DNA of 64,000 bases. Source: Ruditapes philippinarum (Eukaryota). Shown here one piece after another: positions 8,021-17,000 of this stretch. Made by a program: the position numbers. The DNA is taken from contig NW_026858894.1 of NCBI RefSeq assembly GCF_026571515.1, positions 1 to 64,000 of the forward strand, written 5' to 3'. Each line of letters opens with the position of its first letter. Positions within the stretch are counted from its first letter, which is position 1.

Positions 8021-11000
8021 ATATCAATATACAGTAATTAACTTATCATGCTATGTCAAACATATGTTACTCGTGTAGTCATGCAACTGCACTGAAACAA
8101 CACTTAACAATTGTAAGACGTCAAACTAAATGATCAAGTCACTCAACATGTCTAACAAATGTTTTATAAAGTGATTTAAGACGCAAACATTAATGGCATT
8201 ATCACTCAAAATGACAAACAAAACATTGTAAATTAAAGTCAAAGCTTCAATCCTTGTCATGTTAAATGATTCTGTTGCAACACATGCTGAGGCAGGCATT
8301 GTTTGATTACAACAACTGAACTTGCAAAAAGTGAAAATTTCAAAACTAAGTTTTATTAAATAAAGTGTATTTGAATATACATCATACGATAATACTAAAG
8401 AAAACAGGTACAAAGTCCCGGTATATATATATAAAAATAATTACGTAATGGAACATAACTATATAGGCCAATGCATGATACAACTTAAATCTTCTTAAAT
8501 TTATACATACAACGATGTCATCTCTATATAACACTTTATGTACACCAGGTTCATCATAAAAATTTCTTATTTATTTTATTTACGATTTAATTTTTAAAAG
8601 AATTTGATTTAATAACTACAAGAAGCATGAAATCTGTTAAAGAAACAGTGCAATTAAAAAGAAAAATTAAATTATCAGCTAGTTAGACCATAAATTGAAG
8701 TTTTTGAAACGTGCAAGCTTGTTGTCATGTCCAATTATAAAGTTGTTGTGTACTACAACGACGTGTTGGCGTTGCTTGTAATTTTGGTCCTGAAAGAACC
8801 GTTTTCCTGATGCAAACATATCTGGATCTAATATTTTCACACTTAGGTTCGAAAACTTCTGTATCAGTAATCTATTCAAAACGACTTGATCAACCTCTTT
8901 TTTATCTTGTCTCTCTAAAATCTGTTTCCATGCCAAAATTAACTTCCTTGATTTAGCGCTATTTTGTACAGCCATGAAACCTGGACATACATTGTTTTTA
9001 CCATCACTTTGAATCCATATATCATAGTCTCCTTCCAGATGCTGTAAAGGGTTTTGAAGCCAAACAGTATCTGCATCTGTATTGATAATATTTAATCCAA
9101 TATTTAACAGATCACTGATATATAATGACCGTCTTGATATTAAAGAATTGTATGGTTCAGAATTATACTTTACAGCCTTATCTATAGACGGAAGGTGAGA
9201 ATGGACAATATTTATTGCACCAGAATAATTCAGAATCAATTTGTCGTAAACATATTTATCTTCCGCAATGGCAATAACCGGTGCATTTATGCCAAGTTTT
9301 TGAAAATAAAAATGCCAATTTTGGAAAAAGTCATAAAAACCATTATTCACGGTGATCATTACTGTCCATTGATTGTGTGGTATTTTAAGTCCGTGGTTTC
9401 TAATATAGCTCGTCAAATTTGTTATTCCTGTTTTCAATATTTCCGTATCGTATGGTAATATAGTTTTTGTATTTAGATAAGTGGAAAGAAAAGCTATTCC
9501 AAGAATAAACATAAATGGTATGGCATGTTGTAAGTATAGAAATATCTTCATTGTCGGAATCAAGATTAATTACTGATATGTTTTTACCTTCCTTAGCATT
9601 AATATTAATATTAAAGTACATATTGGTTATTCAAAATGTTTTACAAAAATATACAAGATTATATTCACGTTGGTATTGCGTTTGTCTTGGCTTAGCTAAA
9701 GACGTGGCAAAATATCAACAAATTGTAATAGATATAACTGTTTTAAATATATACATGAACATATTGTGTAAACATTTGGACGTGATGTCATTGTTAGATA
9801 TACAGAAGTTATTGTTTTACTATTTAGGTTTATATTTAAAGTAAATGTAATTACATAGAATTGTCGTCATTTTGACAGAACTTTAATAAACATGGTATTC
9901 TTATAGTTTGATATCTTCGAAGAAAAAAGGAAAATGTATTCATTTCTAATTTCTAATTCATCAATTAAAACTCTATAATCATTTTTATCCAAGAAATTCT
10001 CTTTTATAAGAAAACCAAAATAACACATTAATTCATTAAATATATATTTTAAAAATCAGATGAAGACCGATCTACCTTAACATTTGTGCCCTAGTATTCA
10101 GTTTTTCCATATGCGTTATTATTTAAATTATTTGTAATCAACATTAAATATAAGTTCAAAGTTGTAATACTGTCAGTTATTTTATGTATTTGTTGTTGAC
10201 GCTTGTACATTATAAATGGAAACTCATCTTGCATATTTTACTCACTTTTTGAATTCTGCATTCTATCAACGTTTGACAAAATCAGTCATGGCCTGCAAAA
10301 TTATTAGGTTGCCGATTTGATATTTCTTGAATTTTTTATTTTCAATATTTAATTATCATTTTAATATACGTGTACCTTTTTTGGAATACATTTGGACAGC
10401 TTCAAAGTATATGTTATCGAAGAACCAGTAACCAAACACCAGTCGGATCAAGTTATCGATGAAAAACAACAACAGTTAGTTAGTAGGCTTAATAGTTTTT
10501 TATAAAATAATAAAAAAATCTTCAAATTTCTGGGATTGACATACTTTGTTTCTTCGTGTAAGTCAACAAAAATCTTTTATGAACAGTGATACTCCACTAT
10601 TTGTAGAAAATGTTGACTGGAATCATTACTATAGAGGTTTTCAGAGAATATATTGCAAGTATTAGAATTGTAATATTAAACCAAACATTGGGTAATTTCC
10701 ATGTTTATTTTATGCATCAAAGGTAGATGACTTAGACGAAAGTAAACATATATATTTTCATTTAATGTACTCAAATTTCTCAACGCTCTTATTATTTATT
10801 TGCTAACGGATAATCGAACTGATTTTATGTCAGCCAATTATCTATTGAATAAAGTTCTCAAATATGGATAAATTGTTCATTTCAAAACATAAAGGGTGTA
10901 TACTTTTAGAAATGCAATTTTGTTACAAAACCTCTTTCCATTTCTTAAAGATTTCAAATGGCCTTGCTGGATCGAGAATAATATTTATGATTCAAAACTA

Positions 11001-14000: not shown

Positions 14001-17000
14001 ACTTGTAAAATTATATAAATTTATAGAATATAAAACTGGATTTATCGAATGTATTGAAAAATATACAGACTACAAAAATGAAATACTTCTTGTAAAAACA
14101 AGGATTGTGGAGAAACAGTGCACGGTATGAATAAAGATATTGATCCATGAAGAGTATATAGTTTTCTTCAGTGTCCTTAATTTATGGATATGCTTTAAGC
14201 TTAATTCCATGTTGTTGCTAGACTCGATTAATGTCTGGTGCAACGACACCAACCCTTAGCGGGCTTGACAATATGTATGAAGTAACCATTCTCAACTTCA
14301 AATAAACTTGTATGAAATGCATTATCATTTATTGCACTTAATGCTTTTGTTCAGTCTAATTATTATTATTATTTTCAATTATGGCTGAATGCGACTAATT
14401 TGTACTCCTTTACATGGATTAAAATAGTATTTGACACCGTATTTGAAATATTCATATTACAAATTAAATACTTTTGTGATCAGTATCAAGCATTTCCTAC
14501 TATATCACAATTTCTCTTTCTCTTTTTTTCTTTTTTATAATTATAATAAAACCGAATCATTTTCATACTAGTATGTACATTAGTTAATTCTTAAAACACA
14601 AAGAAAATTGTAAACTAACGCAATAACCACAATCAAATTTAATTTAAATTATTACAATACGGAAACAAGATTTTCAGTCCCGTTTTAATTAGTTTCCAAT
14701 TTATGAAAAAATTATTCATATCTCCTGAATGAAATTCCTAGTTTAAGATATTTTTACATTTCAAAGTTAGCAGGCGAATTAAAATTACAAACGAATAATG
14801 ATTTTGTCGAATGTAAAATATAAGAAACAGGCAATATTGTACAAAGCATGCATGTCTTATGTTCGGAGGCAAAGGACCTGTTTAAATAGGCTGTGTCAAC
14901 CCTCAACTGTATTATCACACAGCAATTGTTTTGATTTCGAACTTCAATATATAAGCCCTTGCCCTTATTTGCACAGCATCATGTATCATTAAAACATTTT
15001 TCTTTTGTTTAAAAAGTGATAGATTTGATGATAATTTTTGATTAATCATTCTACACTGAATCACTTTCAAAGTTCTTTGCATCTGAAATTGTAAATCGTA
15101 ATGCATTGATTGTTTATAATAATGGTATCATTATATTGGCAAAACGTCTTATAAAAGCTTTGCTAAAATGCACATTGGACTTGCATATATTCTTATTTAA
15201 GCTTCAAGTTACATTTATCATTACCTCTGAAATCTGCTGTCAATTATTTTATAGTCAACATGAGCATCAAAGTCACAATGAATGACACTCATTTATGTTA
15301 TTAAAAATAGTATCATTAAGTTGTACGTTTTGAATAAATGTAAAACCGATATTTTTGTCATTTTGAATGATATTTAATCATAAACGTCAACATCTCAAAC
15401 AATTTCGAAACGTTTTGCTGGGAATGTTGAGTGACACACCATTGATTTGTGCGTGTAAATGGAATCTTGTTACGTTTGCTTGTCCTGGTGACTGGCATTG
15501 TTATTAACTTCTTTATTGTTATCAATGTTTAAAACAGATTACTTGGCATGATGAGTGCCATAACCGTTCATTTATTCTTTTTTTCAATTCTAAAACGTGT
15601 TGCTTGTTATATCTTTAAACATTTAACTAGACATGTTGAGCGATAGAAATATTAATTCCTGCACCTTTTATACATTTTAAAGTGTCAGTTTTAAATGTTT
15701 AAGTGAAGTTGCTGCTAGAGTAGCATGTGTTTGGCACAATACGACATAATTATTTGTATAATATCTTCCAATGATATTTGTGTTGTTTCTGGATTACATG
15801 CACAATACAGCAACATCTTAATTGAAGAATTATGTCATTCATCTGCTAGCATACACAAGAACAACCAGAAAAGGAAATAAAAGAAATAGTATATGCAAAA
15901 TATGGGTTTTCAGATTAACAGCATACATGACAAAGCAATTCATGTTTTAGGTAACCTCAAGGTAGCCATTTATCAATTAATCACGCCCGCCATCTTACAA
16001 ACCAATACATATTGAGCCAAAGAAGCTATTCTTCTGCTTTTGATGTAGGAAATGAATTTTTGTAGCTTTGTTTAATGAAATATTCAACAAAGAAAACGTA
16101 CAACAATTAAATAGTAAGGCATTTTTTAAATCATTAAATAAATTTAGTCTACATATAGCCTAGATCAAAACTTTTCAACAAAAAAATAATTTTTATAATT
16201 ATAATGATAAAACATGAATAAACCAGTTATTATTATTAAAAATAAATGAGCATGCGTCAATCAGCTTGGCATTATATTGGCAAATATTAAACCCTTTCTT
16301 TCAGTTGTTAATGTATCTAACCCTGGATTTCTTTTTTGGTTCCTCCGTCCATTAAACTTTTTACATGGATCAAAATACGAGAAAATCATTGGACACTGAG
16401 TCTATTGCCTGAGATACATTGCTAGTAAGGTTCACAATTCTCTAACTGAAAAATAAGTAATAATGTCACATTTGATGTGCCATTTTGACCCAAGCTGCTT
16501 AATTCATAAGATAAGGTGAAGACGTCTTCCGAGAAATGCCTTTTTAAATATATCAGTTCTTCAATCAAAAAAAAATCCAAAGACATATGTATCTTTTATG
16601 TAAGCCTATATTAGCGACTTAATCCTTGAAAGAATCGGTTTTGACCCGATGGGAATACAATGATGTCTTTTGAAGTGAAAGTGTAAATAAACTAAATCGC
16701 CCTCGGAAGTTTGGGCTTTTTTTAGATGACTACAATGTGATGATTCATGTCACATATATACATTTGCACATTGAAGTTTAGAAGTGAACTTTAAATTGTC
16801 TATGTTAACTATGTTGCTCCTGGACTTTGACCTTTTTTCCTCCACATCATGAGTCCTACAACCTATCTTGATATTATCTGGTTAGGAGATTTTCAAGACA
16901 TATTTACTTTATAAATCCTTAGCAATTTTAGACCTGATGTACATGATTTACATAACTTTATTACAATACAATGTTATATACAAAATCTGAATATCATATT

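What the first reader, a model, noticed from the sequence alone, without database searches (positions are those of the whole stretch)
8679..14130. Rosetta-stone pair: the two head-to-head genes resemble the two halves of plant RAY1
Seen: a GT77 gene (-) and an uncharacterised GT-A-like gene (+) are divergently oriented, with 3.25 kb between start codons. From memory, plant RAY1 (a GT77 beta-arabinofuranosyltransferase) has an extra N-terminal domain whose motif order (RSW..L.P, GTP, aromatic-x-R...N.W, DAT.TI) parallels LRNWMTLRP, GIPIL, IGRRAYDNWLV and IDSTKTI here. Inference: domains fused in plants are separate neighbouring genes here, which suggests consecutive steps or a complex.
Basis: inference. 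Interest (0 to 1): 0.75.

Follow-up and report, generated by a model that had tools for sequence, protein, structure and literature searches.

The report
Clam glycosyltransferase neighbours, fused elsewhere
Two back-to-back clam genes for sugar-adding enzymes, plus a third one 12 kb away, match separate parts of single long enzymes found in other organisms, which suggests they build the same sugar chain; the specific link to plant RAY1 could not be tested.

Summary
A 290-aa GT77 gene (8679-9551, minus; Pfam PF03407, E 2.2e-31) faces a two-exon gene B (12806-12952 and 13126-14130, plus; 49 + 334 codons), with 3,254 bp between the start codons.

Gene B matches no Pfam, NCBIfam or PDB sequence. 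It folds as GT-A (pLDDT 80, Foldseek). Its family is large and unnamed: 3,809 clusters at 50% identity, expanded in molluscs.

The Rosetta-stone idea is supported, but not through RAY1. Five of 20 long B-domain proteins also carry PF03407, in four architectures and both domain orders. Three of these five also carry a third domain that matches window ORF C (26531-27553, plus). One protein, P0277, matches all three window genes.

No RAY1 sequence could be obtained, so the RAY1 claim is untested. The only lead is that one fusion (P0283) has a plant "RAY1-like" cluster as its nearest ESM-Atlas cluster.

Physical binding is unsupported, and synteny in other molluscs could not be checked.

Best reading: three type II Golgi glycosyltransferases acting on one glycan. 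It is an ordinary kind of system that gives an uncharacterised family a testable function.

The parts
8679..9551 (-). Gene A: single-exon GT77 glycosyltransferase, 290 aa, with an N-terminal hydrophobic anchor and the motif TDADTVW (DxD)
   Evidence: ORF. Pfam PF03407 at E 2.2e-31. D161 and W164 are invariant in alignment A3. One hydrophobic peak at residues 3-21. No PDB sequence match.
9552..12805 (.). Spacer of 3,254 bp between the two divergent start codons
   Evidence: No ORF of 80 aa or more from an ATG lies wholly within it. No tandem repeat. No Rfam family in 7000-16000. Promoters could not be assessed with these tools.
12806..12952 (+). Gene B exon 1: 49 codons holding the membrane anchor (inferred)
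   Evidence: ATG, then an open frame up to a GTAAGT donor. Hydrophobic peak at residues 15-33. Homologues of ~390 aa begin with a comparable anchor, but sequence similarity is not significant (best E 0.33).
12953..13125 (+). Gene B intron, 173 nt, GT...AG (inferred)
   Evidence: Sequence read. The phase-0 junction keeps the frame. The boundary matches where the homologues' exon-2-like sequence starts.
13126..14130 (+). Gene B exon 2: 334 codons plus stop; the whole catalytic GT-A domain of an unnamed family
   Evidence: No Pfam or NCBIfam hit. 227 homologues at E<=1e-3, and every listed hit that has an organism name is a mollusc. The profile finds 3,809 clusters. AF2 pLDDT 80.4, pTM 0.82. Foldseek finds GT-A enzymes.
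26531..27553 (+). ORF C: a third putative glycosyltransferase with an N-terminal anchor and a CEDDI motif. A possible donor at 27447 means the last ~35 codons may be intron.
   Evidence: Weak Pfam GT25 hit, E 0.0028, below the cutoff. phmmer to P0277 at 5.8e-28, P0280 at 4.5e-23 and P0281 at 4.4e-22; these proteins also hold B and GT77. Hydrophobic peak at residues 9-27. The AF2 model was too poor to use.

Best explanation
Genes A (GT77), B (unnamed GT-A family) and ORF C (third GT-A-like family) encode three single-pass, type II, Golgi-type glycosyltransferases. They most likely add successive sugars to the same glycan.

Shown: what each domain is, the arrangement of the three genes within 19 kb, and the existence of single proteins elsewhere that join homologues of two or all three of them.

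Inferred: that fusion elsewhere means a shared pathway here, the Golgi location, and that B is active. B keeps the family's invariant D156 (in NADILF), D221, D245 and H270.

The donor sugars, the acceptor and the order of steps are unknown. I expect pathway coupling rather than an obligate complex, because domain order and linkers differ between the fusions.
For: Fusions:
- One search found 20 B-domain proteins of 593-2000 aa (among 5,176 candidates); 5 of them carry PF03407.
- P0127: anchor, GT77 111-371, B 391-681.
- P0277: B 119-409, C 418-657, GT77 717-979, GT90 1159-1327.
- P0280: B 30-313, GT77 354-583, C 586-840, GT61 1000-1167.
- P0281: the same as P0280 plus GT10 at 1626-1792.
- P0283: B 56-258, a hydrophobic stretch near 301, GT77 356-602.

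Matches to the window:
- P0277 hits three separate window loci by tblastn: 13213-14004 (E 6.5e-25), 26753-27445 (5.3e-20) and 9362-8688 (2.7e-10).

Tree:
- On a tree of 64 B domains the 'fused to GT77' label needs 3 changes, at least 2 of them forced by well-supported branches. The link is therefore not one inherited accident.

What B is:
- GT-A fold. The best Foldseek hits are K4CP chondroitin polymerase 2z87 (E 2.6e-6, TMq 0.43), AvpGT, LARGE1 and SpsA.
- In four prokaryote MAG loci, B-like genes sit among GT2, GT4, Wzx-type flippase and methyltransferase genes. That fits a role in glycan assembly.

Topology:
- A, B exon 1 and C each have one N-terminal hydrophobic segment.
Against: - No fusion was seen in the mollusc-type clade. 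Of the 9 proteins of 556 aa or more among the 150 best representatives, 0 carry PF03407, and 8 of the 9 are tandem B repeats.
- In the prokaryote loci, 0 of 10 neighbours scanned are GT77, and gene A found nothing among their ORFs at E<=1.
- GT77 also fuses with other partners: IRX15/GXM-type, GT61, GT90 and a second GT77 in 7 of the 8 long GT77 proteins. Fusion in these organisms is therefore promiscuous.
- The fused proteins come from unnamed records whose gene models I could not inspect. P0283 is N-terminally truncated and has a hydrophobic stretch between its domains.
- ORF C is not the next gene: a methyltransferase exon and GT77 remnants lie in between.
- Adjacency in other mollusc genomes and co-expression were not testable.
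Confidence: 0.6

Rival explanations
1. One reading: gene B is the separate-gene counterpart of an N-terminal domain of plant RAY1, so A plus B equals a split RAY1.
For: P0283 has the proposed order, B then GT77. Its three nearest ESM-Atlas clusters are Streptophyta PF03407 proteins with representatives of 684, 634 and 701 aa. The first is named 'beta-arabinofuranosyltransferase RAY1-like' (score 0.97, 202 of 256 features). These lengths leave room for a second domain of ~270 aa. RAY1 is a Golgi GT77 beta-arabinofuranosyltransferase (passages of PMC7769824).
Against: No RAY1 sequence was ever compared. The Atlas match may rest on the GT77 half alone, and it gives no alignment or E-value. With gene B alone as the query, the nearest Atlas clusters that carry a Pfam family were DUF707 and GT2, not PF03407. 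The profile search over 593-2000 aa returned no named plant protein among its 20 hits. This is weak evidence, because candidates are chosen by shared words. All NCBI-named family members are 'uncharacterized' or 'hypothetical', none 'RAY1-like'. On the B tree P0283 sits alone on a long branch (2.09).
Confidence: 0.4
2. Chance neighbours: two members of expanded gene families happen to lie side by side, with no functional tie.
For: The B family is large, and individual bivalve species have many paralogues (for example at least 8 Dreissena and 10 or more Potamilus and Sinanodonta entries among the 120 listed). The spacer is 3.25 kb. No other copy of A, B or C stands in the window to show a repeating pattern.
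Against: The same two families are joined in five proteins of four architectures. A third gene 12 kb downstream matches a third domain of three of those proteins. That three unrelated families both cluster here and fuse elsewhere is hard to put down to chance. I could not compute a genome-wide expectation.
Confidence: 0.2
3. A and B form an obligate heterodimeric enzyme: a physical complex, not just one pathway.
For: Fusion of two catalytic domains is compatible with a complex. B's best structural matches include domains of two-domain polymerases and of the CHSY3-CHPF heterodimer.
Against: Domain order and linker length vary. The linker is 20 aa in P0127, about 40 aa in P0280 and P0281, and in P0277 the whole C domain lies between the two. 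That argues against one fixed interface. No positive evidence for contact was obtained.
Confidence: 0.15

Closest known systems
Plant RAY1 (At1g70630), a GT77 beta-arabinofuranosyltransferase of the Golgi
   Same: Gene A carries the same Pfam domain, PF03407. A B-then-GT77 fusion (P0283) is nearest to a plant 'RAY1-like' Atlas cluster. Function and location of RAY1 are taken from passages of PMC7769824.
   Different: Orthology of gene A to RAY1, and homology of gene B to any part of RAY1, were not tested. Donor sugar is unknown here. That animals are not known to use UDP-arabinofuranose is my recall, from no call.
Two-domain GT-A enzymes: E. coli K4 chondroitin polymerase (2z87), LARGE1 (7ui6, 7zvj), CHSY3-CHPF (9o4g)
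   Same: Gene B's model superposes on their GT-A domains (E 2.6e-6 to 2.5e-5, TMq 0.39-0.46). Like them, the fused relatives of B carry two or more GT-A domains on one chain.
   Different: Sequence identity is 10-13% and there is no sequence-level match. Nothing shows polymerising activity. In the clam the domains are separate genes.
Bacterial and archaeal surface-polysaccharide gene clusters
   Same: B-like genes (profile E 1e-37 to 1e-48) lie among GT2, GT4, flippase and methyltransferase genes in L001-L004. The clam locus likewise groups several glycan-modifying genes.
   Different: No GT77 or C-type neighbour was found there (0 of 10 scanned). Identity to gene B is 25-28%. The clam genes are separate eukaryotic transcription units.
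Rosetta-stone (domain-fusion) functional linkage as a method
   Same: Two separate proteins in one genome match non-overlapping parts of one protein elsewhere. That is met here for A+B and for A+B+C.
   Different: The composite proteins come from unnamed records, probably protists; named relatives are Cafeteria roenbergensis and an MMETSP transcript.

Membership tests
GT77 / Pfam PF03407 (gene A) | Match to the family profile above the curated cutoff | tested here: met
   E 2.2e-31, 109.9 bits against a cutoff of 22; residues 92-282 cover profile positions 6-208 of 208.
GT77 / Pfam PF03407 (gene A) | DxD metal/nucleotide-sugar motif and type II membrane anchor | tested here: met
   TDADTVW, with D161 and W164 invariant in A3. 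A single N-terminal hydrophobic peak.
Plant RAY1 clade | Gene A groups with RAY1 rather than with other GT77 clades | not testable with these tools
   No plant GT77 sequence was returned by any search. The GT77 trees in the papers are in figures or supplements that I could not see.
Plant RAY1 clade | Gene B is homologous to the region of RAY1 N-terminal of its GT77 domain | not testable with these tools
   No RAY1 sequence was available. The only lead is the Atlas neighbour of P0283.
Plant RAY1 clade | Beta-arabinofuranosyltransferase activity | not testable with these tools
   Needs an enzyme assay.
GT-A fold glycosyltransferases (gene B) | Rossmann-like GT-A fold | tested here: met
   AF2 pLDDT 80.4, pTM 0.82. 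282 PDB chains at E<=0.001, and the top matches are GT-A transferases and nucleotidyltransferases.
GT-A fold glycosyltransferases (gene B) | Canonical DxD motif after strand beta-4 | tested here: inconclusive
   The position after strand 149-153 reads NAD(156)ILF. D156 is invariant and N154 replaces the first D. An invariant H270 follows in AVHQTT.
Any curated family for gene B (Pfam, NCBIfam, PDB sequences) | Profile or sequence match | tested here: not met
   0 Pfam families at E<=1. 0 NCBIfam families. PDB best E 2 with the single sequence and E 1 with the profile. hhalign against a GT77 profile gave probability 0.3%.
Rosetta-stone pair | Both genes match non-overlapping parts of one polypeptide in another organism | tested here: met
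   P0127, P0277, P0280, P0281 and P0283.
Bidirectional-promoter gene pair | Divergent starts less than about 1 kb apart (the usual definition, recalled) | tested here: inconclusive
   The genes are divergent, but the start codons are 3,254 bp apart. Transcription starts are unknown.

The most novel reading that the evidence does not exclude
The locus is an animal 'glycan biosynthetic gene cluster'. A, B and C would be the split form of a protist-type multi-domain glycosyltransferase assembly line. Together with the neighbouring FkbM-type methyltransferase and sulfotransferase genes, they would make a mollusc-specific methylated or sulfated glycan, or a repeating polymer built by alternating transfers as LARGE or chondroitin polymerase do. 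The module may have reached molluscs from protists or giant viruses.
Probability: 0.15. Interest if true: 0.8.

Novelty: new member of a known kind. Interest (0 to 1): 0.5.

Why it matters
Gene B belongs to a very large family (3,809 clusters at 50% identity) with no curated profile and no known function. The repeated fusions with GT77 and with the ORF C family give it a concrete hypothesis to test: a glycosyltransferase acting in the same pathway as a GT77 enzyme. They also name the partners to test it with.

GT77 enzymes have been studied almost only in plants and Dictyostelium (recalled). An animal locus that pairs one with two other transferases points to unexplored mollusc glycan chemistry. 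If the RAY1 link holds, it would also assign a second catalytic domain to a plant cell-wall enzyme whose role in arabinogalactan-protein synthesis is still unclear (PMC7769824 passages).

Tried and rejected
- Complex prediction for A (residues 45-290) with B exon 2 (residues 40-334): no verdict, score 0.00, controls not run. This is evidence neither way.
- AF2 model of ORF C from a 4-row alignment: pLDDT 45.8, too poor for a fold search, so none was run.
- 'B is just a diverged GT77': rejected at the profile level (hhalign probability 0.3%).
- Pfam, NCBIfam and PDB sequence searches for B found nothing. PDB searches for A found nothing, and for C only POMGNT1 at a non-significant E of 0.45.
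- The search for related loci with the diverse alignment A2 failed because it has no conserved stretch. Alignment A1 was used instead.
- Getting RAY1:
  - The 'longer' search with A2 started at 593 aa rather than about 517 aa as I had planned. A protein of about 537 aa (my recalled length for Arabidopsis RAY1) was therefore out of range.
  - Such a protein would also have been hidden below the 120 hits listed, out of 227.
- Further copies of A, B or C in the window: none, apart from GT77 remnants.
- Exon 1 against stored proteins: best E 0.33.
- The spacer has no tandem repeats and no Rfam family.
- Literature:
  - 'RAY1-like' / 'arabinofuranosyltransferase RAY1' found 6 papers; the 5 listed are all on plants.
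  - 'PF03407' found 1 paper, on fungi.
  - 'At1g70630' found 6 papers.
  - 'GT77' found 114 papers, 25 listed.
  - Two broader term mixes returned nothing relevant.
  - None describes a second domain in RAY1, an animal GT77, or this family. Only passages of four papers were read; supplements were closed.
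Full report
**1. What is there**

The window is AT-rich, about 30% G+C. Gene B's best match is Ruditapes philippinarum LOC132750783, at 88% identity by BLASTP and 94% over 277 tree columns. The window therefore comes from a venerid clam or a close relative. Nothing in it looked human.

Gene A is a single ORF on the minus strand, 8679-9551, 290 aa. It matches Pfam PF03407 Nucleotid_trans, the GT77 domain, at E 2.2e-31. It has one N-terminal hydrophobic segment and the motif TDADTVW on invariant columns.

Gene B lies on the plus strand:
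- Exon 1 is 12806-12952: an ATG and 49 codons that include a hydrophobic anchor.
- A GTAAGT donor follows, and a TTTTATAG acceptor ends at 13125.
- Exon 2 is 13126-14130: 334 codons plus stop.

The start codons are 3,254 bp apart and the genes are divergent. The spacer has no tandem repeat and no Rfam match.

**2. What gene B is**

Exon 2 matches nothing in Pfam or NCBIfam at E<=1. It matches nothing significant among PDB sequences, either alone or as a profile.

It has 227 homologues at E<=1e-3 among proteins of 183-585 aa. Of these, 120 were listed, and every listed hit with an organism name is a mollusc: bivalves and Haliotis.

A profile of 30 family members (A1) was run against 1.84 billion representatives. 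It finds 3,809 clusters at E<=1e-3, 2,337 at E<=1e-10 and 520 at E<=1e-30. This is a very large family with no curated name.

With A1 as its alignment, AlphaFold2 gives a confident model: pLDDT 80.4, pTM 0.82, with only the first 38 residues disordered. Foldseek against the PDB finds GT-A enzymes:
- K4 chondroitin polymerase 2z87, E 2.6e-6, TMq 0.43;
- AvpGT, LARGE1, SpsA, WrtF and ppGalNAc-T2;
- sugar nucleotidyltransferases of the same superfamily;
- sequence identity of 7-14% in all of them.

Invariant residues include D156 (in NADILF, just after a strand), D221 (EDYF), D245 (YDNW) and H270 (AVHQTT). These are plausible catalytic and metal-binding residues, so the enzyme is probably active.

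A profile-profile comparison with GT77 domains shows no relationship (probability 0.3%). B is therefore not a diverged copy of A.

By language-model features, the nearest Atlas clusters are unnamed GT2-like proteins of viruses and bacteria.

Four prokaryote MAG loci encode B-like proteins at 25-28% identity, with profile E values of 1e-37 to 1e-48. Ten neighbouring ORFs were scanned against Pfam:
- Nine matched: GT2, GT4, a Wzx-type flippase, methyltransferases and an asparagine synthase.
- One matched nothing.
- None is GT77.

**3. The Rosetta-stone test**

I first searched gene A against longer proteins (509-2000 aa). This returned 8 proteins among 961 candidates. One of them, P0127 (685 aa), also holds a B-like domain. 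Its layout is anchor, GT77 111-371, B 391-681.

I then searched a domain-level B profile (A2, 34 rows) against proteins of 593-2000 aa. This returned 20 proteins among 5,176 candidates, and 5 of the 20 carry PF03407. Domain maps:

| Protein | Domain order (residues) |
|---|---|
| P0127 | GT77 111-371, then B 391-681 |
| P0277 | B 119-409, C 418-657, GT77 717-979, GT90 1159-1327 |
| P0280 | B 30-313, GT77 354-583, C 586-840, GT61 1000-1167 |
| P0281 | as P0280, plus GT10 1626-1792 |
| P0283 | B 56-258 (truncated), hydrophobic stretch near 301, GT77 356-602 |

'C' is a domain I recognised only because it matches another window gene, ORF C at 26531-27553 (plus strand):
- ORF C has its own anchor and a CEDDI motif.
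- Its only Pfam signal is a weak GT25 hit (E 0.0028).
- phmmer gives 5.8e-28, 4.5e-23 and 4.4e-22 to P0277, P0280 and P0281.
- A small C profile finds only these three among the 284 stored proteins.

P0277 thus matches three separate window genes by tblastn: B at 6.5e-25, C at 5.3e-20 and A at 2.7e-10.

I built a quick maximum-likelihood tree of 64 B domains, chosen from the 280 segments that cover 180 or more profile positions. The rows were:
- all long or fused proteins;
- the 4 prokaryote ORFs;
- 17 named mollusc proteins;
- every sixth representative from P0129 to P0267;
- the window's gene B.

The tree shows the following:
- The prokaryote rows form one group (SH-aLRT 99).
- The mollusc-type rows form one clade of 43 (SH-aLRT 98), and it contains the window gene.
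- Four of the five fused proteins lie in a second clade, together with Cafeteria-like proteins.
- P0283 stands alone on a long branch.
- The 'fused with GT77' label needs 3 changes, at least 2 of them forced by supported branches.

Four architectures, both domain orders and scattered tree positions together make a recurrent association. They argue against a single accident.

**4. Limits of that evidence**

- No fusion was seen in the mollusc-type clade. Of the 9 proteins of 556 aa or more among the top 150 representatives, 0 have PF03407. Eight of the 9 are tandem B repeats, and P0233 has a single B domain.
- GT77 domains close to gene A also fuse with IRX15/GXM-type domains (P0122, P0124, P0126), GT61 (P0123, P0125, P0126), GT90 (P0126) and a second GT77 (P0121). 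Multi-transferase fusion is common in these organisms, which weakens any single pairing.
- The composite proteins come from unnamed records. The only named relatives in that search are a Cafeteria roenbergensis protein and an MMETSP transcript. If some are merged neighbouring genes, they would still show linkage, though not fusion.
- I could not test adjacency in other mollusc genomes or co-expression. Either result could refute the inference.

**5. The RAY1 claim**

RAY1 is a Golgi GT77 enzyme. It showed beta-arabinofuranosyltransferase activity on heterologous expression, and its role in arabinogalactan-protein synthesis is still unclear (passages of PMC7769824; see also passages of PMC3991740).

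The proposed homology between gene B and an N-terminal RAY1 domain is therefore untested.

The one lead comes from P0283, which has the proposed B-then-GT77 order. Its three nearest Atlas clusters are Streptophyta PF03407 proteins of 684, 634 and 701 aa, and the first is named 'beta-arabinofuranosyltransferase RAY1-like' (score 0.97). These are long enough to hold a second domain. The match could still come from the GT77 half alone.

Points against the claim:
- Gene B alone does not land near PF03407 clusters.
- No named plant protein appeared.
- NCBI names no B-family member 'RAY1-like'.

I put this reading at 0.4.

**6. Mechanism**

Most likely A, B and C are three type II Golgi transferases that act in turn on one glycan. 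Shown: the domains, the anchors, the gene arrangement and the fusions elsewhere. Inferred: the shared pathway, the Golgi location and the catalytic competence of B. Unknown: the sugars, the acceptor and the order of steps.

The variable domain order and linkers favour pathway coupling over a fixed complex. The complex prediction gave no verdict and counts neither way.

The wider neighbourhood also holds other glycan-related pieces:
- an FkbM-type methyltransferase exon at 22396-22776;
- decayed GT77 fragments at 23575-24702;
- a sulfotransferase exon at 31651-32070 on the minus strand.

This hints at a broader cluster of glycan-modifying genes.

**7. Verdict**

The objects are ordinary in kind: GT-A glycosyltransferases. 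Two results are new:
- Gene B represents a large family that none of the curated libraries searched here covers.
- Domain fusions tie it repeatedly to GT77 and to a third family that is also encoded nearby.

The literature searches found no description of this family, of animal GT77 genes or of a second RAY1 domain. Only passages of four papers were read, and supplements were closed. Interest is 0.5.

Noticed in passing
window 22396-22776 (+): A 126-aa open frame matches the C-terminal part of FkbM-type methyltransferase domains: PF05050 at E 2.9e-5, PF13383 at E 1.9e-4. It is probably one exon of a gene lying between gene B and ORF C. It has no match among the stored proteins.
   Followed up: partly
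window 23575-24702 (+): Short frame-shifted fragments resemble gene A (residues 97-155, 255-290, 123-149 and 187-244; 33-74% identity; best E 2.9e-7). One fragment, 23942-24046, also hits the GT77 profile at E 9.7e-5. This looks like a decayed GT77 paralogue.
   Followed up: partly
window 31651-32070 (-): An open frame with a weak sulfotransferase match (PF00685, E 6.4e-4, below the cutoff). With the methyltransferase exon and three transferase genes, the first 32 kb look like a group of glycan-modifying genes.
   Followed up: no
window 14131-26530: A run of N lies between gene B and ORF C, and two more lie further downstream. They were left as they are, so the gene content between B and C is incompletely known.
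   Followed up: no
P0001 (Ruditapes philippinarum LOC132750783) versus window 13126-14130: The public 295-aa model starts at the internal Met that corresponds to window position 13198. It lacks exon 1 with the anchor. It also lacks a 17-residue stretch (FLKQYGCEYLTINKT region) that the window and the rest of the family have. The model is probably incomplete.
   Followed up: partly
P0122, P0124, P0126 (stored proteins): GT77 domains close to gene A (35-45% identity) are fused to IRX15/IRX15L/GXM-type domains (PF21729). In plants the GlcA O-methyltransferases AGM1 and AGM2 act on arabinogalactan proteins, as RAY1 is proposed to (table in PMC7769824). That AGM1/2 belong to this DUF579 group is my recall.
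   Followed up: no
P0270, P0271, P0272, P0274, P0275, P0278 (stored proteins): A group that includes a Cafeteria roenbergensis protein carries a conserved region of about 330-400 aa in front of the B domain. This region has no Pfam match (33-85% identity among the six). By eye it may be a degenerate second B domain.
   Followed up: partly
L001-L004 (prokaryote MAG loci): B-like genes occur in a Zetaproteobacteria, a Methanocellaceae, a Desulfobacterales and a 'Deltaproteobacteria' MAG, inside polysaccharide-synthesis clusters. The family therefore spans all three domains of life.
   Followed up: partly
P0128 (stored protein), residues 541-651: A GT77 protein carries a weak GT25-like region (E 0.0072, below the cutoff) behind its GT77 domain. 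ORF C also gives a weak GT25 signal, but the C profile did not match P0128.
   Followed up: partly
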